Positions 15,904 through 36,140 of a stretch of DNA of 50,623 nucleotides are shown here, one piece after another. The position numbers were made by a program, and so were the translations under genes. The notes below the pieces were generated by a model that saw nothing but the letters and a program-made list of their open reading frames with translations, was not told where the DNA came from and searched no databases. The stretch is from an uncultured Ruminococcus sp. (GTDB lineage: Bacteria > Bacillota > Clostridia > Oscillospirales > CAG-272). Each line of letters begins with the position of its first letter. The stretch's first letter is position 1. The stretch spans positions 1 to 50,623 of the forward strand of contig CAZVQC010000006.1 of assembly GCA_964629225.1 (NCBI GenBank), written 5' to 3'.

Positions 15904-15913
15904 ATACCTTGTT

Positions 15914-15942: not shown

Positions 15943-16280
15943 GATGCAAGGAGCGATTTTTACGCCTTGTCGGGGAAAGCGTGGGAGAGTTGGTAGAGAT
16001 CGATTTGAAGCGTGTTTGCACGAAAAGGCAAGTTCGGGGTGTGTCAAGATGAAAGTGATATTGCGTTTTACGCAGTGATGAATGATGCAAGATGCGGCGC
16101 TGCGGCGGCATTGCGGTCACTTTTCGCTCTGCGAAAAGCCGCATTGATAAGAGGACATATCCCTCCGTCATCGGGCTTCAACCGATGCCACCTCCCCTTA
16201 GGCAGAGGAGGCTTCGGTGAGGGATCGTTTTCTTGTCAATAGTGGGAAAGTGGGTGCGGCGGTACCGAGTCCACAATCGG

Positions 16281-17924
16281 TCATTCCCCGCTTTCGCTCT
16301 CGTGCCTATGGACTGCGGCGTAGCGCAGGAGCTGTTTTAGAGAGTGGACGCCGAGCTTCGAGTAGATATTCTTGTTATGGAAGCGGACGGTGGACTCTTT
16401 CAGGTCAAGGTAGGTGAGGATGTCTTTTACGGACTTGCCCTCGATGTAGAGCTCCAGTATCTCCTTTTCCTTGCCGGTGAGGGTACTGAGACCTATTTTG
16501 AAGTTTTCGTAGTCAAAGGGGTCTATCTCGTCCTTGCGGGAGTAGGCGAGGCGTTCGTTCTGCTTCACCGTCTCGTCAAATCTGCTTTGAAGCTCGTCGG
16601 CGGCACTTTCCGCATCGGATTTTTCGCGGCGAAGACGGTCAAGTTCCTCCTCGTTCATCCTATCTTGCTCGGCAAGGAATTTGAAAAGGTCATTTATCTC
16701 CGCCGAATACGTCGTGTCGTAGGAGTATTCTTTCTTTCGGATGCTGTCAAGGGCACTCTTGAGGGGCTTCAGATACCGCTTTGCAAAGAAGAGGGACAGT
16801 GCCACAAGGGATACGGTGAAGATGATCGCCAGAAGTACGATCCTCAGTACGTCGACGGATGCCATGTGCTGATAATCGGACTTCGGTATCAGCACACTTA
16901 TTGCCGAGGTGCATCTGCTGGGGCAGAGACGTATCTCCTCGGTAATGCCGATGTACGCCTCGGCCTCTCCCTGATATTCGGTGAGACCGCTGCCGAATGG
17001 AGCCCGTGTGAAGCTGCCGTAGGGCTCGGCGTAATAGGTATTCAAGATGCCGGCACAGAGGGTAGTGGACTCCGACAGAATGAGACCGTCACAGTCCTTT
17101 GAGATGCAGAACAACGCACGGTCAAGTTCGGAGGGCTGGGCGAATATCTGCTTGAAGTAGCCCTCGTTGAGCTCAAAGCCGCATAATCCGTAGAATTCCC
17201 CGTCACGTGACAGAAGGGGGACGGTCATCAGCATAACGTGCTGATCCGTGCCCGGAAGGAGCACTACGTCGGTGATGCGGTAGCTTTGGTTGAGGGGGAA
17301 GGATGCCTCTGACTTAAGCTCCCCGTAATTCGGGAACAGGTCCGTGTTGAACTCAAGCCTCCATTTTCGGTGGGGCATACAGTTGTGATCCTTGCCGGTC
17401 TTGGAAAGGCCGCGGTAGAGCAGCACCCGATTGTCGGATGCCTCAAGGCTGTTGCGCTGAAGGTAGATGCCGGTGCGGGAGGTGTCGGCGTTTTCCACGT
17501 TTGGATTGACATGGGCATCAAGCATTACGAAGACACCGGTGCAGTCGGCTTCAAACAGCTTGTGCCGCGCCGTGTTGATCAGCAATTCCTGAAGGTCTTC
17601 GATGCGTTCCTCGGAGCCGTTCAGATCCCCGATGGTGATATTATTGTCTGTAAGATAGCTTTCAAGTATTTTCGTAGTTTCGTCGGACAGCTGAACGCTC
17701 ATGACGGCAAGACCGTCATAGTAAGTATCTATCTGCCTCTCAAACAGCTCGGTCTGAAATCGGAGAGTATCCGCCAAACGTTTCTTGGTGCCGGTAAAGT
17801 TACCGATGAGGAACAGCCCCGCAATGAGCAGTGCGCAGAGCAGCAATGCCAAGATGCACATATAGCCGAAAAGCTTCCGCCTGAGAGTCAGTTTCCTGCT
17901 TGAATTATAGTCGGACAGTTTCAT
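16281..17924 (-). CDS. membrane-bound LuxR-family one-component regulator with extracytoplasmic sensor domain
   Basis: 547 aa. TM1 (res ~20-41), a ~300-aa periplasmic-side domain, TM2 (res ~352-375), a cytoplasmic coiled-coil, and a C-terminal LuxR/FixJ-type HTH (LTGKEKEILELYIEGKSVKDILTYLDLKESTVRFHNKNIYSKLGV). Confidence 0.7.
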   Translation of the reverse strand: MKLSDYNSSRKLTLRRKLFGYMCILALLLCALLIAGLFLIGNFTGTKKRLADTLRFQTELFERQIDTYYDGLAVMSVQLSDETTKILESYLTDNNITIGDLNGSEERIEDLQELLINTARHKLFEADCTGVFVMLDAHVNPNVENADTSRTGIYLQRNSLEASDNRVLLYRGLSKTGKDHNCMPHRKWRLEFNTDLFPNYGELKSEASFPLNQSYRITDVVLLPGTDQHVMLMTVPLLSRDGEFYGLCGFELNEGYFKQIFAQPSELDRALFCISKDCDGLILSESTTLCAGILNTYYAEPYGSFTRAPFGSGLTEYQGEAEAYIGITEEIRLCPSRCTSAISVLIPKSDYQHMASVDVLRIVLLAIIFTVSLVALSLFFAKRYLKPLKSALDSIRKKEYSYDTTYSAEINDLFKFLAEQDRMNEEELDRLRREKSDAESAADELQSRFDETVKQNERLAYSRKDEIDPFDYENFKIGLSTLTGKEKEILELYIEGKSVKDILTYLDLKESTVRFHNKNIYSKLGVHSLKQLLRYAAVHRHESESGE

Positions 17925-17938
17925 GGTACGTCACCGCC

Positions 17939-19264
17939 TTACTTGACGTTCTTGAACTGCTCCCAAAGCTCGTCTGCCAGTTTATCGGCGCTTTCGCCGT
18001 TATTATAGCGCTCCGGCATGGTCTTCTGTTCTTCCCTGAGCGAGTCGTACAGTGAGTAGATCCTGTTGTAATAGCCTACGAAGGAAGGCTCACGGACGGC
18101 GGTCGCCCTGTCGTTCACTTCGGCTATGGCATTGTAGAGATTCTTATAGGACTTCGACACGAAACCGTGATCTCCGATCTTGTCGAAGGACGCCTTGTTT
18201 GACGGCATATATCCCGTTTCAATGCAGAATTCAAGGTTTCTTTCCGCCTCGGTGAGCCAACGGGCAAATACCTCGGCGGCCTCTGCCTTTTGGTCGGTGG
18301 TCTTGTAGGCGCAGAGACCCACGCCCGCCTGAGTTACAAGCAGGTCGGTGCCCTCAGCCGCAGGAGGCGGCATTATTTGAAGATCCATAGGCTCGGTGGT
18401 GTTGTCCGGATAGGTCACCGTGTCGTTGTAGTAGAGTATGGATGCGGTGGAGCCCAGTCCCGCCATGACTTCGCCGGTCATCACCTGCGTGTTGGAATAG
18501 AGGTCGGAAACGATGATATGTCCCTTGGCGATGGCGGTGGCAAACTTCATGAAGGATGCCTTGAAAGCCTCGTTTTCAAAGTCGTACCAGCCCTCGGCGG
18601 TGTAGAAGTCGTCATGACCCTGCTCCATGGCGTTCAGCTCAATGGCACGGATGGGAAAATCCAGGGCGCAGAAGGGCTTGCCGTCTGAGTACTCATAGTA
18701 TTTTTCTGCGGCATCGAGGAAGCCATCCCAAGTGGAAAGGCTGTCATAGGTGACTCCGGTGGCAGCGGAGAAACGTTCAAATTGAGTTCCCGCAACGAAG
18801 AGAAGATGAGTGGATTTCGAAACGGGGAATACGGACAGATGCCCGTCCACCATACCGTCCTCTAAAAATTCCGGTACATAGTTATCAAGCTCCTCGTCGG
18901 TGAAGACGTCCTTCCAATCCAAAAGGTTCTCCGCTCCGAGCTCTGCGGCATTGTTGTTGTGGCAAAAGAACAGGTCGGGCATCTCCATGGCGCCTGCCTC
19001 TCCTTTGTGTGCGGAGAGGAGCTTTTCCCCGATCTGTGCCGAGGAGGACATGGAGGATACGTTGATTATGATACCTTGCTCTTTGCCTACCGTGCGGTTA
19101 AATTCCTCCACAAGTCTGTTCATGGGGGAATCTGCCTGCTCACCGTACACGTGCCACATGGTGAGGGTAACGGGTTCCTTCGGGTCAAGAAGGGTCTTTT
19201 GACATCCGCAGAAGACGAGCGCCGTCATAAAGGCTGTCAAGATGATCGCAATGATCTTTTTCAT
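17939..19264 (-). CDS. extracellular solute-binding lipoprotein (ABC family-1 sugar SBP), orphan
   Basis: 441 aa with signal peptide and lipobox (LVFC-GC). No permease or ATPase genes adjacent. Its stop is 15 nt upstream of the LuxR-type gene on the same strand. Confidence 0.75.
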   Translation of the reverse strand: MKKIIAIILTAFMTALVFCGCQKTLLDPKEPVTLTMWHVYGEQADSPMNRLVEEFNRTVGKEQGIIINVSSMSSSAQIGEKLLSAHKGEAGAMEMPDLFFCHNNNAAELGAENLLDWKDVFTDEELDNYVPEFLEDGMVDGHLSVFPVSKSTHLLFVAGTQFERFSAATGVTYDSLSTWDGFLDAAEKYYEYSDGKPFCALDFPIRAIELNAMEQGHDDFYTAEGWYDFENEAFKASFMKFATAIAKGHIIVSDLYSNTQVMTGEVMAGLGSTASILYYNDTVTYPDNTTEPMDLQIMPPPAAEGTDLLVTQAGVGLCAYKTTDQKAEAAEVFARWLTEAERNLEFCIETGYMPSNKASFDKIGDHGFVSKSYKNLYNAIAEVNDRATAVREPSFVGYYNRIYSLYDSLREEQKTMPERYNNGESADKLADELWEQFKNVK

Positions 19265-19356: not shown

Positions 19357-19394
19357 TTTGTCCCCCCAAAACAGCGGTTTTTGAGGGGGACAAA
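19357..19394. promoter_or_regulatory. 10-bp inverted repeat in a divergent promoter region
   Basis: TTTGTCCCCC-N17-GGGGGACAAA. The right arm overlaps a weak -35 (GGGACA) spaced 17 nt from TATAAT at ~19410-19415. Confidence 0.4.
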
Positions 19395-19643
19395 CAAACA
19401 ATATATCCGTATAATATAGTTGCAAGAGTCTCAAAGGAGGATACAGGCTCTTCTTTGTCTCAAGATAAACAGAGGTATCCTCGGTCGGGGAAGATCCCCG
19501 ACAACGGCTTCACCTGCACGTCAATGAAGTGCGAAGCACGCCTTTATTTATTATTTTATCATAATTCTATTCGCAAGTCAAGTAAAACAAGCCGCAGTCC
19601 CGGTACTGCGGATACGGAAATATTTCCGAGAGGAGGAGAGAGC

Positions 19644-20012
19644 ATGGCAGAGCACACAACTGCCGATTACAGAACGGTTGCAGACAGCGGCGGCACAAGA
19701 TACCGATTCTACTGTCAGGTGTCGGGAGCGTTTGCCTGCGCAACGAAGCCCTATCCCGGAGAGGATGCCGAGGCGGAACTTCGGGATGCATGGGAGAGCG
19801 AGGGCAAAAACCACTTCAACCTTTGTCACCGATGCGGAAGGTGGGTGGTGGATGCGGTGTACAACCCGGAGGTGTTCGAGTGTACCGACTGCGCCACCTT
19901 TGAGCATGAGACGAGGTATTGCAAGTCCTGCGGCAAAAGGGTGGATGCGGATGTGCGATTTTGCCCGTTCTGCAAGAGCAGGCTCCATTACGAAGGGGGT
20001 GAGGCATTATGA
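19644..20012 (+). CDS. small zinc-ribbon protein
   Basis: 122 aa with ATG after GAGAGGAGGAGAG. Carries cysteine pairs CHRCG...CTDC and CKSCG...CPFC. Confidence 0.6.
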   Translation: MAEHTTADYRTVADSGGTRYRFYCQVSGAFACATKPYPGEDAEAELRDAWESEGKNHFNLCHRCGRWVVDAVYNPEVFECTDCATFEHETRYCKSCGKRVDADVRFCPFCKSRLHYEGGEAL

Positions 20013-20305
20013 CGGTGAAGGCCAAGTGGGAACAGCTTGAAAGATACGGCTTCGGCCCCAACGTGATGAAGCGTACCAGGGTGTGCCCGTCCTGCGGAAG
20101 GATGGTGACGAACACCTGCAGCTCCTGCCCCGATTGCGGAATGCGCCTTATGAAAAAGACCCTGTGGGACAGGTACAGAGAGCGGCATATGTGCTGTGAC
20201 AGATGCGGCACGGTGCTGGCGGTGGATTCAAGATACTGCCCCCATTGCGGAAGAGCACTCTACGTGAAAAAGGCTCTTCGCTCCGAAAAGAAAAGCAATG
20301 CGTAA
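20009..20305 (+). CDS. small double-zinc-ribbon protein
   Basis: 98 aa with ATGA overlap onto the previous gene. Two CxxC..CxxC ribbons (CPSCG..CSSCPDCG; CDRCG..CPHCG). Confidence 0.6.
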   Translation: MTVKAKWEQLERYGFGPNVMKRTRVCPSCGRMVTNTCSSCPDCGMRLMKKTLWDRYRERHMCCDRCGTVLAVDSRYCPHCGRALYVKKALRSEKKSNA

Positions 20306-20339: not shown

Positions 20340-23300
20340 ATGAAGACCAAGAGACCCCTGAGAGCAGTCAGTTTCATTCTCACCCTTATCATGCTGGTGG
20401 GAATGCTTCCTCTGTCCGCCATCTCATCCATGGCGGCGATACCGGCAGTGGACAGCTCCGTATGGACACTTGTGGGAACGGACAGTAAAGCGTCTAATGC
20501 GGCGCGCTACACCGAGCTTAAAGACGCTCTTGAGAATACCGCCGTTTCTCTGATCAATACGGCGTATGTCCGCCTTGAAAGAGATATCAAATTGGATGCG
20601 GACCTGTCGAAGAGCAGTTGTGTCTTTACAGAGGACTCGATCACTATAGTGGTCACCCGAAAAGTCGTGTTTGACTTGAACGGACACACCTTAAAGGCTA
20701 AAGTCTACGACGGAACCGGAGAGTATCTCGATCCCGTTTCACTGACCATGTTTGAGATCAGAGACGGTGGAAAGCTCACGATAGTTGACAGCAAGGGCAA
20801 GGGCAAGATAGCTACCGACAGCTGGATCTCGGAGCCCCACGTGGACCTGGGTGCCGCCGGTGACATCAATGTCTTTGATATGTTCAAGATAAAAGGAGGC
20901 GGAGAGCTCATTATCAACGCTTCCGGCGCCGAGTTTGAATGCGGTCGCTCAAAGCAGCAGTGGGTAACACGTGCATACACGGTCGATAGAGAACCTGGTG
21001 GCGTTCCCGATGCATCCGACTTTTTTACGGGAAATATTCGCGGTCAGGCCTGCGGCTCCGTTTTTATCGCAGAGTCCAACAGTAAGATCACCGTTGCCGG
21101 AGGAAAGTTTCTTGCAAGGGGATACAGAGGTGTCTATCACCGAGGCTACGGCGATCCTTGTGCGGTCTTTGATGTAAGTGCAAATACTGTCGTCGACATC
21201 ATTGACGGTACATTCTACGGTAAGGGCTGCGCCGACGTGTTCGATGCGGATAAAACTGCCAAGATCACGATTCGTTCGGGTGTGTTCGACGTTTTCAAGG
21301 TAGATAAGGTTCCCGTTTTAAATTACCCGTACCATGAAGACCTTCTCAGCTATTACAGGTACACCCGCTTTACAAACGGCAGATACGGCGAGGTCGGCAT
21401 CCCCGACAGCGCCCTTGATCCGGACAACACCGATATCATAATCGGCGGACACAATTACAGCGAGGACGAGGATAAGGATAATTCCGCAAGCGATACTCAC
21501 AAGACCGTTACGGTAAAACCGAAGACGGGCGCCAAGACTCCCGACGATAGGATCATTGTGGAAAATGAAAACGGAATCGGTGCCTGGAACGGCAGCGACT
21601 CCTACGTTATCAATGCAAAGAACGGCAGAGCCTATTTCTCCGACAGCGACAGAGCGTACCTTGACGACGACCTTCAAAAGGATACGACAGGTTACTTCCT
21701 TTGGACCTTCACTCTGTACGATGCCAAAACGGGTGAAAAATGCGATGCGGAGCCGATGCAGGTGGCAAGTCTCGGTTCCGATGACACGATATCCATCGAT
21801 CTGAAGGACTATAAACAGACAAATACCACTACCTTCAAGTACTATTTCGAAAATGACGGGATCAGCAGTTACAAAATAAAGGCAGAGGTGGAAGAGGTCT
21901 GGGCAGGCCACCATACATACAAACCGAAGTTCCATAACTGGTTCTATTTCAACGAGTACCGGTCTTTTCTCGGTATCGACGCCAACGAGGCGGCGGAGAT
22001 ACTTGACTTCACCGTGACACCGAGAACGCCGAGCTCCGATTGCACATCCTACACCCTCAACACGGAAAACGAAGAGGGGATGGAGTATTATTTCGAATTC
22101 TTGGGAAATAATTCCAAAGGCGCTGTGACCTGTAACAGCTATTATCGCTACTGCAAGGTGGACACGGCGGGAAAAACGGTGCTGTCTTCGAAGCAGGAGA
22201 TAGCGACCGGCACGGAATACGGTGAACCCATTGAATTTATTGTCCCCCCGAAGCATGGCGGTCCCGTGTACGTTACGGTGGAATACGTATTCAGAAGAAG
22301 CATCAACTCTTCAGCTGCGGTAGACGTTGTGACCATAACCAAGACACATCTTGCCTATGCACTTGACTTCATGACATACGATGTCCTCGCAGCGGATGAG
22401 GCAATAAGAACGGGCCGTGTCTCCGCTTCCTACGGTAATTACGATACGGTGGAGCTTTATGATGGCGAGACTGTCCTCATAAAGCCCAACATCAGCGCCG
22501 ATATGGCAAAAACGGACGTGATCAACCCGATAACGGGCAAGACCTTCTCCAAGAGCGATATCAAGTGGCAGCTCTCCACCGGACTTGACGATTACGGCAA
22601 TCACGTTTGGAATGATGTTCCCGCTCGTGAGATAGTCAATCAGGAGATCGACGGCGTAACTCTCCCATGTGTTAAGACCAACAGAACGGCGTGGTACAGA
22701 ATGAGTTACGTTTGGAACGGCGAGACTTACCATTCGCCTCAGTCGCTTCTTGTGAAGGGCGTTTCCTACGAAAAGAACCGCATTGCCACCGTGATCCGAA
22801 GCGACAGATTCACCGGTATATACGGCAAGGGCGAAAACAAATTGTATCTTGACGTCAATAAGGATGCCGACTGGAACACCGGAGGCTGCTCCGTGGACTC
22901 CATACGTATCTTCCTGATGGAAAAGCCCGATGGAGCGAACCCCGGCAGTACGATGAAGACACCGAGTAGCTTCGCGACCGGTCAAAACGGTCTGATCGAG
23001 CTTATCAATACCGACAGCTTCTTCGAAAATGAGGCGGGCGCCGTAACGGGTATGTACACCTTCCGTGTCAGGGTTACGGGTACCAATGCCGACGGCTCCA
23101 CGTACTACGTTACTGCGAACTGTGACGTCTGGTACAGTCAACAGACCACCGACTTAAATATCTACGTGAACGGCATGCCGATCTACAAGCATGATGAGAT
23201 CAACATTCCATGTATCCTGACGGCGGATACCAATCTGTTCGACTTCACCTGCGACTATTATCCGCTGAACACCATGGGCAACGGCATTGACAAAAGTTCT

Positions 23301-25979
23301 GTCAAATGGACGTCCTCCGACAGCGGTGTGCTTCGTATCGACGAGAAGACGGGTGAAGGATTGGCCCTCAGACCCGGAACCGTAACGGTCAGGTGCTCGT
23401 GGAAGGATTCCGACGGAGCATCTCACTCAAGATCTGCGAAGGTCAGCGTTCCCATAGCCGGATTTGAGCTTAACAAGATCGACTATGCAAGCTACGTCGG
23501 CAGCAACCTTCCTTACATTTCGGGAGAAATTGCCACCGTTAAATCCGTATGGTCCTGCGGCGGTGAGAAGGTGACCGTAGATCCCGGTCGTTATATCGGG
23601 GTAAGACTCACAAGCTACAACGGCTGGGGCGAGGCCTCCACAGCCTTCGGTGAAGCAGTCGTGGAATATAACAACAACGCCTCCTACGGCTACACTGTGA
23701 CTGCGAAGGCGGACGACGGTTACTTCTTCGCAGCAGAGGCCGAGGCGGACGTTTTTGAGACCGAATACTACGTGGACAAGGCACAGCTTCGGTGCAACGG
23801 TCTTGACGACGGAGCGATACTGCCGGCGGAGGACTACGACGCTTACACCGAGTGGAACACTCCCTACACCGTGGAGATCGATTACGTAAACAAGACGTAC
23901 AACGAGTACTACAAGGGCGGAATGTACGTAAGACTGTCCCACGTTCCCGTGATTGAGGATCCGGGTGCGGTCTATCTCAAAGAGGTCAATGTTACGGTAA
24001 GCGAGCCCGCAGTGGGTGACAACCGCTATGAGGGCACCACCTACAACCCGATGAATGAGTATCTGGTACTGAACGTCAGCGGTATCCTCGGAAACTGCAA
24101 GGACTCTTCAACTCACAGCTACGTTTCAAAGCTTGATATGAGCGATATAAGGGGCACCGGAAAAGCCTATGACGATGCCTCCTCCGAAGAAAAGGGCGCA
24201 CTTACCATCGAGTACATGAGCGTGTGGAATACCACCGACTACGTGACATGGAACAAGCCCACCAAGACTTACGAAAACGGCATCTACGTTCACGACGTGG
24301 GTCTCTGCTTTGACAGTGACGCCATGGCGGGCATGAATGTCTTCGTGGCAAAGGATGCCAAGATATTCGTAAACGGCAGAGAAATGGATTTTGCCTCCGT
24401 ATACTACGGCTCCGACGGTACGAGCAGCGTAAACTTCAAATACTACTTTGACGTGGGCGAGGTGGAGACCGTCTCCGTCGTAAGTGTGACCGGCATCAAT
24501 GCTCCCCTTCAGGGAGAGCTTCCCTCGGATGTGGGGGATGCTACAGTTCTCGTGGGCGGTGTGGAGAGCGACTCTGTCTACATTTCCAAACTCATATGGT
24601 TCGTGGATGCCAACGGCAACGGAGCCTATGATGAGGGTGAGGAGGCGCAAGCTCGCTACTACGGTTTCAACGGCTCATATCGTGGGGACAGCACTCTTTG
24701 GTATGACGGCAGATTTTTGGCAGGTGTTTCTTATAGCCTGTGCGTTGAGCTTCAGGCAGACGGTGTCCGTCTTGACTCGAATGTTGTCGTATCCTTCAGC
24801 GGTCTTGAAAAGAACTTGATCGGCAAGATGAGTGGGGTATTCACATTCCCCGCAGACAATATTATACGCACAGTTACGATCGATGCTTTGACAACGGACA
24901 GTGCAGCGGGCAAGTTCCTTGACCCGTTTATGCTTACCTTTAGCGGTAAGACATCGGGATTCTCCCTCAACTGGACATACAATGAATTTACCGAGTGCGA
25001 CGATCCTACGGCAAGTGTCGGCGAATTTATCGGGGATGTTATCACCTACAGTTACGATGATATCAAGCTCCCCGGAGGCAAAACATGGCTTCGTGCTATG
25101 ATAATGCCGGAGGACGGTTTTCAGATCAGCAATAACTTCAAGTTCCTTGTAAACGGGACCGATGCTTGCGAAGAGTTCGCACCGGGCAGAAGCAATATTG
25201 AGACCTGCGTTAATTCGGGCGGAATCTACATGAGTTGTTATATGTTCACGGTACCCAAGACCGGTGCGGACGTTACCGTCAACGTGACGGGAGCATCCGG
25301 CGGCAAGGTGAATGCACAAAAGACGGTACAGCTCATTGAGAGCGGTTACAGCGAGGCGGCATATGAGAGTGTGATCGCCGCCGACGGTACGAGTTGCGTT
25401 ATTTCGGGCGTTCCCGACGGCACGTACAAGGTGAAGGTGATGGCAGCGGGCTATGTTACCGCCGAGACTACGGTGACGATCAACGGCTCCGATGCCACCG
25501 TGAACGTGACTTTGAGGACCGTTTCCACAACCGCAGCGGTGAAGGGAACTGTCTACAGCAAGGGCAGTGCCGCGGATCCGGTCACTCTGAGACTCACCTT
25601 GGTGGGCAAAAGTGAGCCGTCATACGAGGTGGTAGTTACCGGAAACAAGGCTTCCTACTCCATCGGAAACGTTGAGAACGGCACCTACGTTCTCACCGCA
25701 ACCAAGAACGGTCACTCGGACTACAGTATCATGGTAACCGTGGACGGTACGGACCTGACACAGAACATCACCCTGTCACTTCCCGGCAGCCTTATGGGAG
25801 ACGTGGACGGAGACGGCAGGATAACCAACAAGGACCTGCTCCTCATGAGACGTTACCTCCTTATGGTAGTGGGAGAGAGTGAGACCTTCTGTTTTGACAA
25901 TGCAGACCTTGACTACGACGGCAGGATAACCAACAAAGACCTTCTCAAGCTCCGCAAGATAATAATGGGAGTTGAGTAA
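20340..25979 (+). CDS. giant secreted dockerin-bearing protein (beta-helix-like N-region, two carboxypeptidase-regulatory-like domains, type-I dockerin)
   Basis: 1879 aa from the ATG after GAAGGAGGA. Signal peptide MKTKRPLRAVSFILTLIMLVGMLPLSA. C-terminal duplicated Ca-binding dockerin repeats GDVDGDGRITNKDLLLMRRYLL / DLDYDGRITNKDLLKLRKII. Confidence 0.85.
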   Translation: MKTKRPLRAVSFILTLIMLVGMLPLSAISSMAAIPAVDSSVWTLVGTDSKASNAARYTELKDALENTAVSLINTAYVRLERDIKLDADLSKSSCVFTEDSITIVVTRKVVFDLNGHTLKAKVYDGTGEYLDPVSLTMFEIRDGGKLTIVDSKGKGKIATDSWISEPHVDLGAAGDINVFDMFKIKGGGELIINASGAEFECGRSKQQWVTRAYTVDREPGGVPDASDFFTGNIRGQACGSVFIAESNSKITVAGGKFLARGYRGVYHRGYGDPCAVFDVSANTVVDIIDGTFYGKGCADVFDADKTAKITIRSGVFDVFKVDKVPVLNYPYHEDLLSYYRYTRFTNGRYGEVGIPDSALDPDNTDIIIGGHNYSEDEDKDNSASDTHKTVTVKPKTGAKTPDDRIIVENENGIGAWNGSDSYVINAKNGRAYFSDSDRAYLDDDLQKDTTGYFLWTFTLYDAKTGEKCDAEPMQVASLGSDDTISIDLKDYKQTNTTTFKYYFENDGISSYKIKAEVEEVWAGHHTYKPKFHNWFYFNEYRSFLGIDANEAAEILDFTVTPRTPSSDCTSYTLNTENEEGMEYYFEFLGNNSKGAVTCNSYYRYCKVDTAGKTVLSSKQEIATGTEYGEPIEFIVPPKHGGPVYVTVEYVFRRSINSSAAVDVVTITKTHLAYALDFMTYDVLAADEAIRTGRVSASYGNYDTVELYDGETVLIKPNISADMAKTDVINPITGKTFSKSDIKWQLSTGLDDYGNHVWNDVPAREIVNQEIDGVTLPCVKTNRTAWYRMSYVWNGETYHSPQSLLVKGVSYEKNRIATVIRSDRFTGIYGKGENKLYLDVNKDADWNTGGCSVDSIRIFLMEKPDGANPGSTMKTPSSFATGQNGLIELINTDSFFENEAGAVTGMYTFRVRVTGTNADGSTYYVTANCDVWYSQQTTDLNIYVNGMPIYKHDEINIPCILTADTNLFDFTCDYYPLNTMGNGIDKSSVKWTSSDSGVLRIDEKTGEGLALRPGTVTVRCSWKDSDGASHSRSAKVSVPIAGFELNKIDYASYVGSNLPYISGEIATVKSVWSCGGEKVTVDPGRYIGVRLTSYNGWGEASTAFGEAVVEYNNNASYGYTVTAKADDGYFFAAEAEADVFETEYYVDKAQLRCNGLDDGAILPAEDYDAYTEWNTPYTVEIDYVNKTYNEYYKGGMYVRLSHVPVIEDPGAVYLKEVNVTVSEPAVGDNRYEGTTYNPMNEYLVLNVSGILGNCKDSSTHSYVSKLDMSDIRGTGKAYDDASSEEKGALTIEYMSVWNTTDYVTWNKPTKTYENGIYVHDVGLCFDSDAMAGMNVFVAKDAKIFVNGREMDFASVYYGSDGTSSVNFKYYFDVGEVETVSVVSVTGINAPLQGELPSDVGDATVLVGGVESDSVYISKLIWFVDANGNGAYDEGEEAQARYYGFNGSYRGDSTLWYDGRFLAGVSYSLCVELQADGVRLDSNVVVSFSGLEKNLIGKMSGVFTFPADNIIRTVTIDALTTDSAAGKFLDPFMLTFSGKTSGFSLNWTYNEFTECDDPTASVGEFIGDVITYSYDDIKLPGGKTWLRAMIMPEDGFQISNNFKFLVNGTDACEEFAPGRSNIETCVNSGGIYMSCYMFTVPKTGADVTVNVTGASGGKVNAQKTVQLIESGYSEAAYESVIAADGTSCVISGVPDGTYKVKVMAAGYVTAETTVTINGSDATVNVTLRTVSTTAAVKGTVYSKGSAADPVTLRLTLVGKSEPSYEVVVTGNKASYSIGNVENGTYVLTATKNGHSDYSIMVTVDGTDLTQNITLSLPGSLMGDVDGDGRITNKDLLLMRRYLLMVVGESETFCFDNADLDYDGRITNKDLLKLRKIIMGVE

Positions 25980-26054
25980 GTCGAAAGATCACCCGACATC
26001 AAATGATCCGAATCAAATGTCCCGACAGCCTTCGGGCTGTCGGGGGACGATCCG
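25249..26054 (+). repeat. 806-bp segment nucleotide-identical to 31162-31967
   Basis: Covers the last 242 codons, the stop, and the terminator hairpin CCCGACAGCC-ttcg-GGCTGTCGGG of both giant genes. ORF-track fragments 25394-25615 and 31307-31528 translate identically. Confidence 0.85.
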
Positions 26055-26276
26055 ATACATGGCACTGCGTTTTCCAAAGTGTCAAAGGAAGACCGCTGCC
26101 GTGATCCGGACGGAATGCCCTCTGTCGAAGGGACGGGGTGAGAGACCCGGCTCTTCAACGGGGCTTAGGCTTCGATATGCGTTTTGAAAATAATTCCCCG
26201 ACACGGTCTGCGTTTTGTGATATCGCTAACGGACGTGGGGATAAATAACAGTGAAACGGACAAGGAGGAACACAAA

Positions 26277-29200
26277 ATGAAAACAAAGAGACCGATACGG
26301 TTTGTCAGCATCCTTCTCACCTTAATAATGGTGATCGGTGTGCTGCCACTGTCGGCGCTCTCGACCCTTGCTGCCGGCATAAGTTATGCCGATGAGCCCA
26401 ACTGGGTCTTGGTAGGTACCGACAGCAGTGCGAGCGCCGAGGAGAATTTGAAGAGTCTTACGACCTTGCTGACGGACGAGAGCGGCTCCGGTGCCAACTA
26501 CACCGGCGACACTTTGTACGTCAGACTTGAAAAAGATATCGCAGTCGATTTCAAGAGAGTTGTCAACAGCTTTGCCTCGGAGACCAACGGAGGCAACATG
26601 AACATTGCGGTAGTCGGCAAGAAGGTGCTTGATCTTAACGGACACACCGTCAAGTCAAAAATGATGCTTGGCGACATCGACGACGAATGGTACGATCCCT
26701 ACAGAGGCACTTTTCTCCTCGTATACGGCGACCTTACCATAGTTGACTCCAAGGGCGGCGGCGAGATGAAGTCTGATATGCAGATACAAAATGTCCGTCC
26801 GGAGGAAGTCTACCACTACGACCTGTTCCACGTAATGGACGGAGGAGAGCTGACCGTCAATGCGCCCGGCTCGAAATTCACAAGCGGTCGCTCGCAGGAA
26901 TACTATGATGACAGCGACTACCATATCAGAAATCACTGGTACCGCAGTCAGTCAAACGGCTCCCCGGTCGACGTTCACTCCGGCGGTAAGCTGACCGTTG
27001 CGGGAGGAACTTTCAACGGCAGAGGATACTCCTTTGACAGACGTAAGCATGACTATACAAGATTTGACTGTGCGGCTATTCTTGCGGAGAAAAACTCCAC
27101 GGTCTATATCATCGACGGTAACTTCTACGGCAGAGGCGGAGCCGATGCGCTGAACATATCGAACGATGCGGACATAACGGTAGAGTCCGGTGTTTTCGAC
27201 GTTTTCAAGGTGGACCGTCTTGCCGAAATGAAACACGACGCAGGCACGATGAATATAGTCGACGGTTGGTACGGAGACGTGGGTCTTCCCGAAAGAGTGA
27301 AAACTCAGCTTGCCCTCAAGGGCTCCGCTGTGGAGATAGTAAAGAACGGTCACGATGTTACGGGTGACGAGCTTAGCGACAGCAGCCTTGTCACGGACCG
27401 AAGCACTGCAAAGATCACCGTCCGTCCCACGGGCGGAAGCAACAATTTGGACAGCCGTGTGAGCATCGTCTCCGATAACGGTGTTTCCAGTATCAATCCC
27501 AATACCGTCAGCGGATCGGACACTTACGTGGTGAACGCCGAGTATAAGAACCCCTATTTCTCAAGGACGGCGGCGGAATTCTCCGAGTCAAACTACCGTC
27601 CTCGGAACAAGGATATCGGCAAAAACAGCGATGAATACTACCTGACATGGACCTTCACTCTTCGCGATACGGACGGCTCCAAGGTCGCCGATCTTGCCAA
27701 GGTCACGACAGTGGGAACTCAGACCTCCGTCAGCGTGGACCTTATTGCGGAATACGGCGCCTCAAAGTGGAGAAATCTGAGTACCGGCGACTATAAGATC
27801 CGTTTGGAGATCACCGAGTGCTGGAAGGGTGATCACACCTACAAGAGCACCTGGAGAAACGAGATGGGACTCAACCTCAGTGACAATTCACTGCTCACCT
27901 ATCTCTCCGGCATTACGGACTTCAAGTTTGACTTCAACGTAGTACATAACAAGGATCTCTACTACGGCGATACCCAGTATCTGTCATTTGAACTTGACTA
28001 CTACACGGTGAATGACCTTAACGAGATCAGAGATTCCTACAACAACTACTACGGCGGTTTCAGTATCATGGTCTCATATACCGTCGAATCCTACGATCCG
28101 AAGGGCAACAACTACGTGACAAATACGGATCCGAAGCCCATAGCAAGCACGATAACCGCCGCTGTTAACGACGGTGCGGGCCCGAAGGTCATAACAGCCA
28201 ATATATACATTCCGAGATTCGACGATTCCACCCGCAAGATAGTGGGATACGACGTTCTTACCACGAGAAAGAATTTCCTGCTTCTGCCGACGATGAGCAA
28301 GTGCCTTGACAGCGATGCGGAGACCGTGGGATTCCATAAGCCCGTATCATTGACACATACCGACAGTTACGTGAAGGTCGATACCGCAGAGGACGTCTGG
28401 GGTGCGCCTTTGGCAGACAGCGGTACGTTCTCATGGCAGTGGTATTCCGTCTACGACCACGATATCGGTGCGGACGTGGATATCCACGGCGACTCCTCCC
28501 CCTACAGCAAGTACACCATAGCGGCGGAAGGCAACAGTTACAAGATATCGAGGGACGGAACGTACCGTCTTGCATTCAGCTACGTTCCGAACAACGGCGG
28601 TGTTCCGGAGGAGTTCGTATCGGTGCCCATCGATATCTATGCCTCCAACAGTCAGGAACTTAAGATAGCGACCCTCAGCGGCAGCGAGACCGTACGTCCC
28701 ACGTTGGACGAACTCGGAAGATCGCCTTTGAGACTTGACCTCGGAGAGGGAAGCTGGGGTACGGTCGAATCGGTTACTCTTTCAATAAAGGGACGTCCCA
28801 CACAGGTGGCACATTCTTCACCCATTGAAGGCTCGTACTGCTTCTCAGCCGCAGCAAGGGAGGGCTACTACCTTTTCTACCTGAATGATTTTCCGAGCAT
28901 ACAGGACGCTATTGCCGACGGATGTGCAGGCGGTGAATACACGTTCCGTGCCACGATTCAGGGTAAAGACATCTACGGCTACAAATATAAAACATCTTCA
29001 AACGATCTCACGGTAACGTTCGAGCAAGAGGCGGAGGGCTACGGCCTTATCGTCAACGGAGAGTACCTCGGCAGAGGATGGTCGACTGAAGAGGAAGCAA
29101 AGGCACAGGTCATCCCCCTCTTCATCAACAGTAAGAGCCCCGAAATTACTTTACAGGTGGCATATTATCCCGAAAGTGCCACATTCGATCCCAATAACAG

Positions 29201-31892
29201 TTACACTTCATATTCCTGGTACGATTCCGGTTGTCCTTTCCTCAAAAGGGTCAGCGGAGGCAATACCGATACGTATCAAATGACCATATTAAGGCCCGGT
29301 GTCGGTATTATGAGTGTATATCACGTCGGTGAGTGGATATACTATAAGATCTGTGTTCCCGTCACGGAGATTCAGCTTACAATGCCGAACTATCAGAACT
29401 ACATAGGAACGGAATATTCCGCTATCAAACCCGTAAACGTGAGCCTTGTAGCGGAATGCGGCAAAAGGACGTCCGAGTCAGGCTCTTATGCAAGCGTTTT
29501 GCTCCAGGATGGTTATGAGCCGTATTTCTGGGAAAACGGAACGAATTACGTCAGCGGCAAGAAGGTCGCCGCAAACGATCTTGGCGTTATCAATTATCAA
29601 TTGCACCTTCCCGAATGGCAGTGCTTCCCGGTCGAGGAAGTGAGAGAAGGCAGATACATGGTGGATCTCGGCAGAGTCGCCGTCACAGTCATCCGCAGCG
29701 ACGGCACGAGCGAGACCTTGTCCGCCGAAGCGAGAAATGCATACATGAACTGGGATAAGGATTTCTGTTGCAGTGACGATTCTTACAATGATTCCACTAC
29801 TTACATGGGATTCAAGATAACCGAGGACGTGTTCGTAAAGGAAGAGAGCGCAACTTACATCGACCTTGTCACCATTAATACCACCGAGCCGGGCGTGGGC
29901 GACCCCATCAACGAGGGTATCAAGATCTACAGAGATGACGGCTTTGAGTGGACTCAGCTCGGCTATACCTGCAAGGCGGGTGACGTTTCGACGCTTACGG
30001 ACGTCAAGACCGAGAAAGGCAAGGATATAATATTCGTCTATTCAAGTACAGTCAGCAAAGCCACCGTCGAAACAGCGGGTGAGCACTACACAAATGCAAG
30101 CGGGGCTAAAGCCGAGAGCGGAAAGTCCTGGGCGTACAGCTCATTTTTGAACGGCACGTATGAAAACGGAACGTATTTCCACGAGCTTTCACTGAGTACG
30201 AACAAGGACCTCGGCACCGACGGCAAGAAATATTACTTTGCTCCCGATGTGAAAGTAGTACTGAACGGCCATATCCTTGATTTTGAGAACCTTGTACGGT
30301 ACGATGCGAGAAATGGCACAAGCTCCATCGGTCTGGACTATTTCTTTGATGTAGGCGACGTCATTACCGTTTCCGAGATCGATATTGACGGCATAGTACC
30401 CTATCAGGGGGATCTGCCCGCCACAGCCGATGATGCAACGCTTTTCGCAAAGTATTATGACGGAACGGAGGACAGCGGCAAGGTTGAGATCCGCTCCATT
30501 GAGTGGTTCGTAGATGCCAACAACAACAGCGTATTCGACGACGGAGAGGGTGTCAAAGCGAGGTTCTGGGGCGACGGCACTTACAAGCCGGAGGACAGCA
30601 CTCTCTGGTGGGACGGAACATTCCTTCCCGGCGTTGAATACAGCGCTAAGGTACAATTCGGAAGCAGTGCGGCAGCCCTCAGGTTTGCATCCGACCTTGC
30701 GGTGGACTGCGGAGGAGGCGAACCCGTATTTGATACGGCAACGTCATTCACGGTCAAATTCGCAGGTGACTTCACAATAAGAAAAGTATCCATTAAGACC
30801 GCCGAGGGTGCAGACGCGGCATACCCATCCGGCCGTGACCCGTTGGCACTTGCAAATGCAAGCGTGGCATACAACATAATAAGCATCGGTGTCTTTAAGC
30901 AGCAAGACAATCCGGACGTTGCAGCGGATTCCAACGTCCACGCCTTCTACGCACCGGAAGGAAATCACATTTCCGATACTTTGACCGGCGGCAAGTATTT
31001 CTACGAGTTCTCCATCTCTTGGAAGGATACCGACTACGTACTTGACAGCGAGGCAACGGTTCTTGTCAACGGCAAGGATTACGGCGAGGTATTCGCTCCG
31101 AACAGAAACGAGATAATCGTTGAAAGATCCAAGTATTCGCTGTACTGCTACTACTGCTTCTCGGTACCCAAGACCGGTGCGGACGTTACCGTCAACGTGA
31201 CGGGAGCATCCGGCGGCAAGGTGAATGCACAAAAGACGGTACAGCTCATTGAGAGCGGTTACAGCGAGGCGGCATATGAGAGTGTGATCGCCGCCGACGG
31301 TACGAGTTGCGTTATTTCGGGCGTTCCCGACGGCACGTACAAGGTGAAGGTGATGGCAGCGGGCTATGTTACCGCCGAGACTACGGTGACGATCAACGGC
31401 TCCGATGCCACCGTGAACGTGACTTTGAGGACCGTTTCCACAACCGCAGCGGTGAAGGGAACTGTCTACAGCAAGGGCAGTGCCGCGGATCCGGTCACTC
31501 TGAGACTCACCTTGGTGGGCAAAAGTGAGCCGTCATACGAGGTGGTAGTTACCGGAAACAAGGCTTCCTACTCCATCGGAAACGTTGAGAACGGCACCTA
31601 CGTTCTCACCGCAACCAAGAACGGTCACTCGGACTACAGTATCATGGTAACCGTGGACGGTACGGACCTGACACAGAACATCACCCTGTCACTTCCCGGC
31701 AGCCTTATGGGAGACGTGGACGGAGACGGCAGGATAACCAACAAGGACCTGCTCCTCATGAGACGTTACCTCCTTATGGTAGTGGGAGAGAGTGAGACCT
31801 TCTGTTTTGACAATGCAGACCTTGACTACGACGGCAGGATAACCAACAAAGACCTTCTCAAGCTCCGCAAGATAATAATGGGAGTTGAGTAA
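26277..31892 (+). CDS. giant secreted dockerin-bearing protein, tandem paralog of 20340-25979
   Basis: 1871 aa from the ATG after AAGGAGGA. Signal peptide MKTKRPIRFVSILLTLIMVIGVLPLSA. Shares motifs with the upstream gene across its full length (W.LVGTDS, YVRLE.DI, DLNGHT.K.K, LTIVDSKG, SGVFDVFKVD, IEWFVDAN). The C-terminal 242 aa are identical. Confidence 0.85.
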   Translation: MKTKRPIRFVSILLTLIMVIGVLPLSALSTLAAGISYADEPNWVLVGTDSSASAEENLKSLTTLLTDESGSGANYTGDTLYVRLEKDIAVDFKRVVNSFASETNGGNMNIAVVGKKVLDLNGHTVKSKMMLGDIDDEWYDPYRGTFLLVYGDLTIVDSKGGGEMKSDMQIQNVRPEEVYHYDLFHVMDGGELTVNAPGSKFTSGRSQEYYDDSDYHIRNHWYRSQSNGSPVDVHSGGKLTVAGGTFNGRGYSFDRRKHDYTRFDCAAILAEKNSTVYIIDGNFYGRGGADALNISNDADITVESGVFDVFKVDRLAEMKHDAGTMNIVDGWYGDVGLPERVKTQLALKGSAVEIVKNGHDVTGDELSDSSLVTDRSTAKITVRPTGGSNNLDSRVSIVSDNGVSSINPNTVSGSDTYVVNAEYKNPYFSRTAAEFSESNYRPRNKDIGKNSDEYYLTWTFTLRDTDGSKVADLAKVTTVGTQTSVSVDLIAEYGASKWRNLSTGDYKIRLEITECWKGDHTYKSTWRNEMGLNLSDNSLLTYLSGITDFKFDFNVVHNKDLYYGDTQYLSFELDYYTVNDLNEIRDSYNNYYGGFSIMVSYTVESYDPKGNNYVTNTDPKPIASTITAAVNDGAGPKVITANIYIPRFDDSTRKIVGYDVLTTRKNFLLLPTMSKCLDSDAETVGFHKPVSLTHTDSYVKVDTAEDVWGAPLADSGTFSWQWYSVYDHDIGADVDIHGDSSPYSKYTIAAEGNSYKISRDGTYRLAFSYVPNNGGVPEEFVSVPIDIYASNSQELKIATLSGSETVRPTLDELGRSPLRLDLGEGSWGTVESVTLSIKGRPTQVAHSSPIEGSYCFSAAAREGYYLFYLNDFPSIQDAIADGCAGGEYTFRATIQGKDIYGYKYKTSSNDLTVTFEQEAEGYGLIVNGEYLGRGWSTEEEAKAQVIPLFINSKSPEITLQVAYYPESATFDPNNSYTSYSWYDSGCPFLKRVSGGNTDTYQMTILRPGVGIMSVYHVGEWIYYKICVPVTEIQLTMPNYQNYIGTEYSAIKPVNVSLVAECGKRTSESGSYASVLLQDGYEPYFWENGTNYVSGKKVAANDLGVINYQLHLPEWQCFPVEEVREGRYMVDLGRVAVTVIRSDGTSETLSAEARNAYMNWDKDFCCSDDSYNDSTTYMGFKITEDVFVKEESATYIDLVTINTTEPGVGDPINEGIKIYRDDGFEWTQLGYTCKAGDVSTLTDVKTEKGKDIIFVYSSTVSKATVETAGEHYTNASGAKAESGKSWAYSSFLNGTYENGTYFHELSLSTNKDLGTDGKKYYFAPDVKVVLNGHILDFENLVRYDARNGTSSIGLDYFFDVGDVITVSEIDIDGIVPYQGDLPATADDATLFAKYYDGTEDSGKVEIRSIEWFVDANNNSVFDDGEGVKARFWGDGTYKPEDSTLWWDGTFLPGVEYSAKVQFGSSAAALRFASDLAVDCGGGEPVFDTATSFTVKFAGDFTIRKVSIKTAEGADAAYPSGRDPLALANASVAYNIISIGVFKQQDNPDVAADSNVHAFYAPEGNHISDTLTGGKYFYEFSISWKDTDYVLDSEATVLVNGKDYGEVFAPNRNEIIVERSKYSLYCYYCFSVPKTGADVTVNVTGASGGKVNAQKTVQLIESGYSEAAYESVIAADGTSCVISGVPDGTYKVKVMAAGYVTAETTVTINGSDATVNVTLRTVSTTAAVKGTVYSKGSAADPVTLRLTLVGKSEPSYEVVVTGNKASYSIGNVENGTYVLTATKNGHSDYSIMVTVDGTDLTQNITLSLPGSLMGDVDGDGRITNKDLLLMRRYLLMVVGESETFCFDNADLDYDGRITNKDLLKLRKIIMGVE

Positions 31893-31967
31893 GTCGAAAG
31901 ATCACCCGACATCAAATGATCCGAATCAAATGTCCCGACAGCCTTCGGGCTGTCGGGGGACGATCCG
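31162..31967 (+). repeat. second copy of the 806-bp identical segment
   Basis: See 25249-26054. Confidence 0.85.
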
Positions 31968-36114: not shown

Positions 36115-36140
36115 CTTGAAACCAGAAACGGAGGAACATT

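What the first reader, a model, noticed from the sequence alone, without database searches (positions are those of the whole stretch)
20340..31892. Tandem pair of ~1,870-aa dockerin proteins with no recognisable CAZyme catalytic domain
Two back-to-back genes encode secreted giants with near-identical signal peptides. Each has an N-terminal region full of beta-helix-like repeats (DLNGHT.K, LTIVDSKG, AGG.F.ARGY, SGVFDVFKVD), two carboxypeptidase-regulatory-like beta-sandwich domains and a C-terminal type-I dockerin. They share motifs over the whole length but are strongly diverged in the middle. They are therefore cellulosome-targeted, yet I cannot place them in any glycoside-hydrolase, lyase or esterase family from sequence. 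A cohesin-like gene (49081 onward) in the same window supports a cellulosomal context. These may be novel cellulosomal adhesins or enzymes.
Basis: partly seen in the sequence, partly recalled or inferred. Interest (0 to 1): 0.65.

Follow-up and report, generated by a model that had tools for sequence, protein, structure and literature searches.

The report
Dockerin-anchored giant surface proteins, beta-helix tip
Two neighbouring genes encode ~200-kDa secreted proteins built like bacterial surface fibrils (a beta-helix head, a long stalk of Ig-like domains and a dockerin plug), most likely non-enzymatic adhesin-like proteins of an uncharacterised but not exotic family of gut Clostridia.

Summary

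New points:
- The last 243 codons plus 75 nt of 3' flank are 100% identical between A and B (806 nt), although the gene bodies are only 30-40% identical. B's orthologue keeps 63-82% identity until exactly that boundary. The anchor module was therefore recently exchanged.
- The N-domain family has about 500 cluster representatives. It always sits at the N-terminus of 1000-2000-aa proteins that carry dockerin, SLH or Flg_new, and never a CAZyme domain.
- Relatives include Eubacterium ramulus. There the gene sits next to a membrane-anchored, cohesin-like protein and a LuxR-type sensor system.
- "Cellulosomal" is therefore not shown. Cohesin-dockerin surface display of an adhesin-like fibril is the better reading.

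An enzymatic beta-helix is not excluded. I rate this a new member of a known kind, of moderate-low interest.

The parts
16281..17924 (-). LuxR/GerE-family regulator, 547 aa. Two hydrophobic segments (about aa 20-42 and 357-380) flank a roughly 310-aa presumably extracytoplasmic region. The HTH is C-terminal.
   Evidence: Pfam GerE E 1.7e-15. Sequence read. The same 550-aa GerE gene sits in the same position in L012/L013.
17939..19264 (-). Solute-binding lipoprotein (SBP_bac_8), transcribed divergently from the giant-gene operon. No permease genes are adjacent.
   Evidence: Pfam SBP_bac_8 E 1.7e-25. Lipobox-like N-terminus ...VFCGC. Conserved position in L012/L013.
19359..19415 (+). Conserved promoter with an inverted repeat, TGTCCCCC-N18-GGGGGACA (19359-19392), that overlaps the -35 GGGACA. 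The -10 TATAAT ends at 19415.
   Evidence: Promoter scan. The palindrome is unique in the window, with 0 expected by chance. It is 85% conserved upstream of the B-type orthologue in L007 and 81% upstream of ZnR1 in L012/13.
19644..20012 (+). ZnR1, a small zinc-ribbon protein (about 122 aa from MAEHTT; the ORF is open from 19455). First gene of the putative operon.
   Evidence: Pfam zinc-ribbon families. 66% identical homologue directly upstream of the giant gene in L002. 118-120-aa Zn_Ribbon genes in L012-L015.
20009..20305 (+). ZnR2, a second small zinc-ribbon protein (98 aa). Its start overlaps the ZnR1 stop, and it ends 34 nt before gene A.
   Evidence: Translation, DNA. Homologues in L002 (64%), at the contig edge of L001/L003 (79%), and in L012-L015.
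20340..25979 (+). Gene A, 1879 aa (mature about 202 kDa, pI 4.6).
   Evidence: (identical to P0001).
20340..20438 (+). Gene A signal peptide (aa 1-33, MKTKRPLRAVSFILTLIMLVGMLPLSAISSMAA).
   Evidence: Read from the sequence. The N-terminal pattern is conserved across the family (consensus).
20454..21374 (+). Gene A N-terminal right-handed beta-helix with an N-terminal capping helix (aa about 39-345). Family-invariant residues: D112, L113, N114, G115, D150, R203, S204, Q236, R260, D289 and others.
21660..25256 (+). Gene A stalk: about nine different beta-sandwich / Ig-like domains (aa 441-1639). Includes a Big_2/NUP210-like Ig at aa 989-1018 and the family's most conserved stretch, aa 1201-1320.
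25257..25778 (+). Gene A: two PEGA / CarboxypepD_reg-like beta-sandwiches (aa 1640-1813).
   Evidence: Pfam.
25797..25964 (+). Gene A dockerin (aa 1820-1875). Two Ca-binding loops, DVDGDGRITNKD and DLDYDGRITNKD, each followed by a helix. The two halves are near-symmetrical.
   Evidence: Pfam Dockerin_1 E 3.8e-9. Internal 43-nt repeat, 84% identical. Motif scan.
25249..26054 (+). Copy 1 of the 806-nt tract that is 100% identical to 31162-31967. It covers the last 243 codons of A, the stop codon and 75 nt of 3' flank, including a GC-rich hairpin at 26021-26044.
   Evidence: Hairpin.
26277..31892 (+). Gene B, 1871 aa. Same architecture as A: signal peptide, beta-helix, stalk, 2x PEGA/CarboxypepD_reg, dockerin at 31710-31877. 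It belongs to a separate clade.
   Evidence: (identical to P0017). GGAGG lies 8 nt upstream of the ATG.
31162..31967 (+). Copy 2 of the 806-nt identical tract (anchor module of B plus 75 nt of 3' flank, hairpin at 31934-31957).
   Evidence: B's identity to its orthologue collapses at this boundary.
49081..50623 (+). Candidate partner. A secreted protein (it runs off the window) with two cohesin-like beta-sandwich modules (aa about 30-235 and 240-410) followed by Cys-rich repeats.
   Evidence: Translation. PF00963 E 0.0083, sub-threshold. Profile A5 has cohesins 1tyj and 2y3n as top PDB hits at E about 0.05. Some proteins sharing the Cys-rich repeats carry a Pfam cohesin.

Best explanation
A and B are non-catalytic, fibril-like cell-surface proteins (adhesin-like).

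Proposed mechanism:
1. Each protein is exported by Sec.
2. Its C-terminal dockerin plugs into a cohesin on a cell-bound anchoring protein. Candidates are the cohesin-like, Cys-repeat protein at 49081 onward, or another cohesin elsewhere in the genome.
3. About eleven beta-sandwich domains form a stalk roughly 40-50 nm long. The length is inferred from about 4 nm per domain.
4. The N-terminal beta-helix, at the far end of the stalk, binds a ligand, most likely a glycan of plant, host or microbial origin.

A and B are old paralogues with different heads and stalks. They carry one and the same anchor cassette, kept identical by recent recombination or gene conversion, so both fit the same cohesin.

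Expression is probably driven by the conserved palindrome-bearing promoter upstream of ZnR1-ZnR2-A. It is possibly controlled by the adjacent membrane-bound LuxR-type regulator together with the orphan solute-binding protein.

Shown: the architecture, the folds, the absence of known catalytic modules, the anchor exchange, the conserved gene context and the family distribution.
Inferred: surface display, the binding function, the nature of the ligand, the partner cohesin and the regulation.
For: - Architecture. Signal peptide. Beta-helix head. An all-beta stalk whose structural neighbours are S-layer proteins (Sap, EA1, SbsB/C), cadherins, Lig and Rib domains, intimin, an RTX-adhesin extender and NUP210. 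PEGA/CarboxypepD_reg plus dockerin.
- No catalytic family. None appears in A or B, in the 19 close family members, or in 32 distant relatives. There are no PDB sequence relatives beyond Ig/PKD domains.
- Anchors are interchangeable. 18 of 19 close members carry a dockerin and one carries SLH. Among 32 distant members, 14 have a dockerin, 3 SLH and 4 Flg_new. The head is always N-terminal in 1000-2000-aa proteins.
- Anchor exchange. An 806-nt tract is 100% identical. B versus its orthologue L007 is 63-82% identical up to aa about 1620, then 15-45%. The best-hit pattern along A is mosaic.
- Partner. In E. ramulus and a Hadza-gut Oscillospiraceae MAG, the gene immediately downstream encodes SP, a cohesin-like module (PF00963 E 0.004), Big_2, Cys/His repeats, a Pro/Thr linker and a C-terminal TM anchor. 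The window's 49081 gene is of the same general type.
- Precedents. Beta-solenoid adhesive domains of Firmicutes fibrillar adhesins, e.g. L. reuteri SRRP binding region and Cthe_2159 (PMC9210967). Dockerin-cohesin pairs that hold cells to substrates (R. flavefaciens CttA XDoc-CohE and R. champanellensis DocB-CohE; PMC7456326).
Against: - No binding data exist and no ligand is known.
- The only adhesive-domain Pfam hit (PF20585) is below threshold (16-18 bits against a cut-off of 24.3; 3 of 16 sequences).
- The close family keeps invariant charged or polar residues (D112, N114, D150, R203, S204, Q236, R260, D289). These could form an active site rather than a structural ladder. I could not inspect coordinates.
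- The stalk is not made of sequence repeats and is colinear across the family. Its most conserved stretch (aa 1201-1320) lies far from the tip. This is unlike typical fast-evolving repetitive adhesin stalks and hints at a function not captured by the model.
- The cohesin assignments are all sub-threshold.
Confidence: 0.55

Rival explanations
1. The beta-helix head is a carbohydrate-active enzyme of an undescribed family (polysaccharide lyase, glycosidase, esterase or epimerase). It is held away from the cell on a stalk and docked by cohesin-dockerin binding, so A and B would be two enzymes with different specificities.
Confidence: 0.2
2. A and B are bona fide cellulosome components. They would be subunits plugged into a scaffoldin of a plant-fibre-degrading multi-enzyme complex, acting as substrate-targeting or structural subunits.
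For: Dockerins pass the Pfam threshold. A cohesin-like gene lies in the window. The nearest B-type relative is labelled Ruminococcus sp.. A GH3 gene lies 6 kb upstream.
Against: The window has no scaffoldin, no dockerin-bearing enzyme and no other dockerin. Homologues with dockerins occur in E. ramulus and human-gut Lachnospiraceae. To my knowledge E. ramulus is not cellulolytic, and I did not check this here. The cohesin-like neighbours in relatives have a single cohesin-like module and a TM anchor, so they are anchors and not enzyme-integrating scaffoldins. SLH replaces the dockerin in some members.
Confidence: 0.1
3. The identical 806-nt tails are an assembly artefact (a repeat collapsed or copied by the assembler). 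Gene B would really have a different C-terminus.
For: Identity is perfect with razor-sharp edges. The window's genome could not be found in the look-up collections for an independent check.
Against: The contig reads through both copies into different flanks, and those flanks are syntenic with relatives: the lipoprotein, SPFH and DUF4428 genes follow B just as they follow the single giant gene in L002. An independent assembly (P0002, 90% identical to A) carries the same 246-aa tail at 100%. Mosaicism is seen throughout the family.
Confidence: 0.07

Closest known systems
Fibrillar adhesins of Firmicutes with a beta-solenoid adhesive domain (e.g. Limosilactobacillus reuteri SRRP binding region, PDB 5NY0; beta-solenoid clusters of Monzon et al. 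2022, PMC9210967)
   Same: A secreted, very long protein with a right-handed beta-solenoid head distal to a stalk of Ig-like domains and a cell-surface anchor at the other end. There is no catalytic module.
   Different: The anchor is a dockerin (or SLH in some members) rather than LPXTG. The stalk domains all differ in sequence and are colinear across the family, rather than being tandem repeats. The head has no significant sequence match to any adhesive-domain Pfam family (PF20585 is sub-threshold). Binding is untested.
Ruminococcus flavefaciens CttA (XDoc bound to the ScaE cohesin, PDB 4IU3) and R. champanellensis DocB-CohE
   Same: A dockerin is used to fasten a non-enzymatic, substrate-binding or load-bearing protein to a cell-bound single cohesin.
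   Different: From my own knowledge, CttA is much smaller and binds cellulose through CBM-like modules, and its dockerin is preceded by an X module. Here the preceding modules are PEGA/CarboxypepD_reg sandwiches, and the head is a beta-helix.
Cthe_2159 of Clostridium thermocellum (PDB 4PHB, DUF4353/PF14262): polysaccharide-lyase-like beta-helix without known activity
   Different: 13% identity and no Pfam PF14262 hit. Cthe_2159 is a small single-domain protein, not the tip of a 1900-aa fibril.
Pectate/pectin lyases, GH28 polygalacturonases, CE8 pectin methylesterases, PL6 alginate lyases
   Different: No sequence-family match. No family-specific catalytic motif was recognised. The helix is shorter. 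The domain context never includes other CAZyme modules.

Membership tests
Dockerin (Pfam PF00404) | Score above the Pfam gathering threshold, with two tandem Ca-binding loop + helix segments | tested here: met
   37.0 and 38.3 bits against a cut-off of 22.9. The loops DVDGDGRITNKD and DLDYDGRITNKD are each followed by a helix.
Dockerin (functional) | Ca-dependent binding to a cognate cohesin | not testable with these tools
   Needs a protein-protein binding assay. Only sub-threshold cohesin candidates were found.
Cellulosomal enzyme (CAZy GH/PL/CE module + dockerin) | A recognisable catalytic module of a CAZy family | tested here: not met
   No GH/PL/CE Pfam or NCBIfam model hits A, B, 19 close relatives or 32 distant relatives. 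There are no PDB sequence relatives. dbCAN itself was not available.
Cellulosome component | Presence of a multi-cohesin scaffoldin and dockerin-bearing plant-cell-wall enzymes in the same organism | tested here: inconclusive
   None is present in the 50.6-kb window. The rest of the genome could not be retrieved.
Pectin-lyase-like right-handed beta-helix fold | Three-stranded parallel beta-helix coils | tested here: met
Pectate_lyase_5 (PF20585, putative pectate-lyase-like adhesive domain) | Score above the gathering threshold of 24.3 bits | tested here: not met
   16.3-17.8 bits, covering only the first half of the model, in 3 of 16 family heads.
Fibrillar adhesin (sensu Monzon & Bateman) | Signal peptide, stalk of tandem Ig-like domains, and a surface anchor | tested here: met
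   Signal peptide read from the sequence. About 11 beta-sandwich domains. Dockerin or SLH anchors. Caveat: the stalk domains are not sequence repeats.
Fibrillar adhesin (sensu Monzon & Bateman) | A domain with demonstrated or family-assigned adhesive function | tested here: inconclusive
   The head has the fold of known beta-solenoid adhesive domains but no significant family match.
Cohesin (PF00963), for the gene at 49081 onward | Score above the gathering threshold of 24.1 bits | tested here: not met
   16.8 bits, E 0.0083, aa 256-407 over model positions 17-139. phmmer against PDB finds nothing. A small profile puts cohesins 1tyj and 2y3n on top, at E 0.05-0.06. It is cohesin-like, not proven.

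The most novel reading that the evidence does not exclude
The giants would be the cargo of a self-contained, non-cellulosomal cohesin-dockerin surface-display system that is widespread in gut Clostridia, including non-fibrolytic species such as Eubacterium ramulus. The system would comprise a giant head-and-stalk protein, a dedicated membrane-anchored cohesin protein with Cys-rich repeats, and a membrane LuxR-type sensor. In this reading the beta-helix head founds a new glycan-cleaving or glycan-binding family. The anchor cassette would be swapped between paralogues and incoming genes to match the host's cohesin.
Probability: 0.25. Interest if true: 0.6.

Novelty: new member of a known kind. 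Interest (0 to 1): 0.35.

Why it matters
If the model is right, these proteins are among the largest surface structures of their host. They would be candidates for how uncultured gut or rumen Clostridia attach to fibre, mucus or other cells.

Three further points follow:
- Dockerins in genome annotations should not be read as "cellulosome" by default.
- The family supplies an uncharacterised N-terminal beta-helix domain (about 500 cluster representatives) and several unassigned stalk domains that could be turned into family models.
- The 806-nt identical anchor cassette is a clean natural example of module exchange that keeps two divergent cargo proteins compatible with one receptor.

None of this overturns current understanding.

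Tried and rejected
- The afdb50 fold library was not available.
- A riboswitch or leader RNA, e.g. c-di-GMP, upstream of A or B. Rfam at the gathering threshold over the whole window, and at E up to 1 over both upstream regions, found only two tRNAs and noise.
- A mobile-element origin. The integrase (14468-15514) next to tRNA-Leu (15819-15903) lies on the far side of the tRNA from the giants. No att-like repeat of the tRNA 3' end exists in the window. GC content is flat at 0.51-0.53.
- Tandem duplication as the origin of A and B. I rejected this because the bodies belong to separate clades. B is 69-71% identical to L007/P0025 and only 30-36% to A. The syntenic locus in L002 holds a single giant gene.
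- The second giant gene near P0011 (L012 16252-21255) is unrelated to this family.
- Naming the organism. By neighbours it is a Clostridia (Eubacteriales) genome close to MAG SRP350583_co2_379 (SPFH protein 88% identical).
- Internal repeats in the stalk: BLAST finds none.
- Pairwise BLAST of the 49081 protein against cohesin-bearing relatives gave no significant alignment of the N-terminal modules.
Full report
**1. What is there**

The + strand carries two long ORFs.
- Gene A starts at the ATG at 20340, preceded by GGAGG, and ends at 25979. It encodes 1879 aa.
- Gene B's real start is the ATG at 26277, also preceded by GGAGG, and it ends at 31892. It encodes 1871 aa and is identical to database protein P0017.

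The mature proteins are about 202 kDa and acidic, with pI 4.6.

By BLASTP, A and B are 36% identical over aa 1-538 and 41.5% over aa 779-1879. Between those regions nothing aligns. The signal peptides are 23/33 identical, so they are similar rather than near-identical.

**2. Domains**

Pfam finds only four things:
- PEGA and CarboxypepD_reg sandwiches (aa about 1640-1813);
- a dockerin (aa 1820-1875, 37-38 bits against a cut-off of 22.9);
- a faint Ig hit (aa 989-1018);
- a sub-threshold hit to PF20585, the "putative pectate lyase-like adhesive domain" (E 0.012).

NCBIfam finds nothing.

No catalytic module is detectable anywhere in either protein.

**3. The identical tail**

Positions 25249-26054 equal 31162-31967 over 806 nt without a single mismatch. 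Identity falls to background on both sides. The tract covers the last 243 codons (both sandwiches and the dockerin), the stop codon and 75 nt of 3' flank, which contains a GC-rich hairpin.

Gene B's orthologue in a Ruminococcus sp. MAG (L007/P0025, 69-71% identical overall) stays 63-82% identical to B up to about aa 1620. It then drops to 15-45% exactly at the tract boundary.

A and B belong to different clades. A groups with P0002-P0016, and B with P0025, P0290, P0291 and P0032. The syntenic locus of a related MAG (L002) has only one giant gene between ZnR2 and the lipoprotein gene.

The pair is therefore not a recent tandem duplication. It is two old paralogues whose anchor cassette was recently homogenised or swapped. 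An independent assembly (P0002, 90% identical to A) carries the same 246-aa tail at 100%, which argues against an assembly artefact. The best relative of A changes along its length, so mosaic recombination is a general feature of the family.

**4. The family**

A word-indexed search of 5.8 billion proteins finds only 19 full-length relatives of A. None carries a name. Eighteen have a dockerin and one (P0004) has SLH repeats instead.

An exhaustive HMMER search with the head profile against 1.84 billion cluster representatives finds 496 proteins at E of 1e-3 or better, 293 at 1e-10 and 80 at 1e-30. The head is nearly always at the N-terminus of a 1000-2000-aa protein.

Among 32 of these distant relatives, Pfam finds dockerin (14), CarboxypepD_reg (7), Big_2 (5), Flg_new (4), SLH (3) and other Ig domains. 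It finds no glycoside hydrolase, lyase, esterase or peptidase.

Species representatives include Lachnospiraceae, Oscillospiraceae, Ruminococcus and Eubacteriales MAGs, some of them from human gut, and the cultured Eubacterium ramulus ATCC 29099. The E. ramulus homologue (an ORF of 1741 codons) has the same architecture and a dockerin.

The whole 1600-aa body is colinear across the family, and no internal sequence repeats are detectable. The most conserved stretch is not in the head but at aa 1201-1320 (mean column conservation 0.69-0.76). That is the region where AlphaFold is least confident. I have no explanation for this.

**5. Context**

In the A-type clade the gene order is conserved: a GerE/LuxR regulator (550 aa, minus strand), an SBP_bac_8 gene (442 aa, minus strand), a promoter, then ZnR1, ZnR2 and the giant gene. 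The zinc-ribbon genes precede the giant gene in the window, L002, L012/13, L014/15 and at the contig edge of L001. The GerE and SBP genes accompany them in the window and in L012/13.

The window's regulator has two hydrophobic segments flanking a roughly 310-aa region, with a C-terminal HTH. It is probably a membrane-bound sensor regulator. The SBP has a lipoprotein-type N-terminus and no adjacent permease genes.

The promoter region carries a palindrome, TGTCCCCC-N18-GGGGGACA (19359-19392), that overlaps the -35 box. It is unique in the window. It is conserved at 81-85% upstream of ZnR1 in L012/13 and directly upstream of the B-type orthologue in L007. This suggests a common operator for both clades.

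In the distant branch (L005, L006, L008-L011) the giant gene is preceded by open reading frames of matching size and order. Where I scanned them (L006, L010, L011), they are a HisKA_7TM protein and a histidine kinase, followed in L006 and L011 by a LuxR-type response regulator.

In E. ramulus and L006 the giant gene is followed by a secreted protein with this layout: a cohesin-like module (PF00963 E 0.004 in E. ramulus only), Big_2, Cys/His-rich repeats, a Pro/Thr linker and a C-terminal TM anchor.

The window's gene at 49081 is of the same general type. It has a signal peptide, two cohesin-like sandwiches and Cys-rich repeats, and it runs off the window. The cohesin evidence is weak:
- PF00963 gives 16.8 bits against a cut-off of 24.1.
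- phmmer against PDB finds nothing.
- A four-sequence profile puts two cohesins on top of the PDB search at E about 0.05.
- Some proteins sharing the Cys-rich repeats carry a Pfam cohesin, but pairwise BLAST of the N-terminal modules is not significant.

The window contains no other dockerin, no scaffoldin and no dockerin-bearing enzyme. The GH3 at 11932-14157 has no dockerin. No riboswitch or other known RNA lies upstream of A or B.

**6. Interpretation**

The best-supported reading (confidence about 0.55) is a fibril-like, non-catalytic surface protein. The dockerin fastens it to a cell-bound cohesin, the Ig-like domains form a stalk, and the beta-helix at the far end binds a ligand, probably a glycan.

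Precedents:
- Beta-solenoid adhesive domains of Firmicutes fibrillar adhesins, such as L. reuteri SRRP, and the carbohydrate-binding Cthe_2159 domain (PMC9210967).
- Dockerin-cohesin pairs that tether non-enzymatic, load-bearing proteins to the wall in ruminococci (PMC7456326).

The shared anchor cassette lets two different heads use one receptor.

Rivals:
- An undescribed enzyme family in the head (0.2). The fold neighbours and the invariant polar residues allow it, but there is no family match.
- True cellulosome subunits (0.1). The window shows no cellulosome context, and the family occurs in species that, to my knowledge, are not fibre degraders.
- An assembly artefact for the identical tails (0.07).

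**7. Verdict**

"Cellulosomal" is an over-reading of a Pfam name.

The proteins belong to an uncharacterised but sizeable family whose architecture places it among known kinds of Gram-positive surface fibrils. I rate it a new member of a known kind, with interest about 0.35.

The most interesting concrete results are the anchor-cassette exchange, the conserved sensor/promoter context, and the recurring link to a membrane-anchored cohesin-like protein in non-cellulolytic gut bacteria.

Noticed in passing
window 19359-19415 (+); L007 267-300; L012 9012-9075; L013 4739-4802: A conserved palindrome-bearing promoter, TGTCCCCC-N18-GGGGGACA, overlaps the -35 box and is followed by TATAAT. It lies upstream of the ZnR1-ZnR2-giant operon, and directly upstream of the B-type orthologue in another genome. 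It is probably an operator for a shared regulator.
   Followed up: partly
window 19644-20012 and 20009-20305 (+): Two small zinc-ribbon proteins (ZnR1, ZnR2) sit tightly packed immediately upstream of gene A. They are conserved in that position in five related loci. Their function is unknown. Further zinc-ribbon proteins (SPFH+DZR at 33205-34617, DUF4428+DZR at 34686-35624) lie downstream.
   Followed up: partly
window 16281-19264 (-): A membrane-spanning LuxR/GerE regulator (547 aa) is paired with an orphan SBP_bac_8 lipoprotein and no permease genes. It looks like an extracellular-solute sensor. It is conserved next to the giant gene in L012/L013.
   Followed up: partly
window 23940-24299 (aa 1201-1320 of gene A): This is the most conserved stretch of the whole family (0.69-0.76 column conservation). 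It lies in a stalk domain with long loops that AlphaFold models at pLDDT 35-50. It may be a second functional site or an interaction surface.
   Followed up: no
window 49081-50623 (+); also L011 15252-18062 and L006 15378-17633: Cys-rich (CxxC-type) repeats of about 45-90 aa follow the cohesin-like modules. The same repeats occur in hundreds of gut-bacterial proteins alongside CAP (PF00188) and LRR_5 (PF13306) domains, including one labelled Blautia faecis. No Pfam family covers them.
   Followed up: partly
window 14468-15514 (-) and 15819-15903 (-): A tyrosine recombinase (Phage_integrase + SAM-like N domain) lies next to tRNA-Leu(TAG). No repeat of the tRNA 3' end occurs elsewhere in the window, so no island boundary could be defined. 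The ORF listed at 15740-16171 overlaps the tRNA and is probably spurious.
   Followed up: partly
window 36054-38054 (-): A 666-aa ORF has no Pfam hit. It is conserved (37% identity) at the same place in L002.
   Followed up: no
L012 16252-21255: A second, unrelated giant gene (1667 aa, helical N-terminal region, C-terminal TM anchor, no Pfam hits) lies 1.3 kb downstream of the family member P0011.
   Followed up: partly
window 26021-26044 and 31934-31957: A perfect 10-bp GC-rich hairpin follows each giant gene. On the + strand no T-run follows it, so it is not a canonical intrinsic terminator for these genes. Gene B may therefore be read through from gene A.
   Followed up: no
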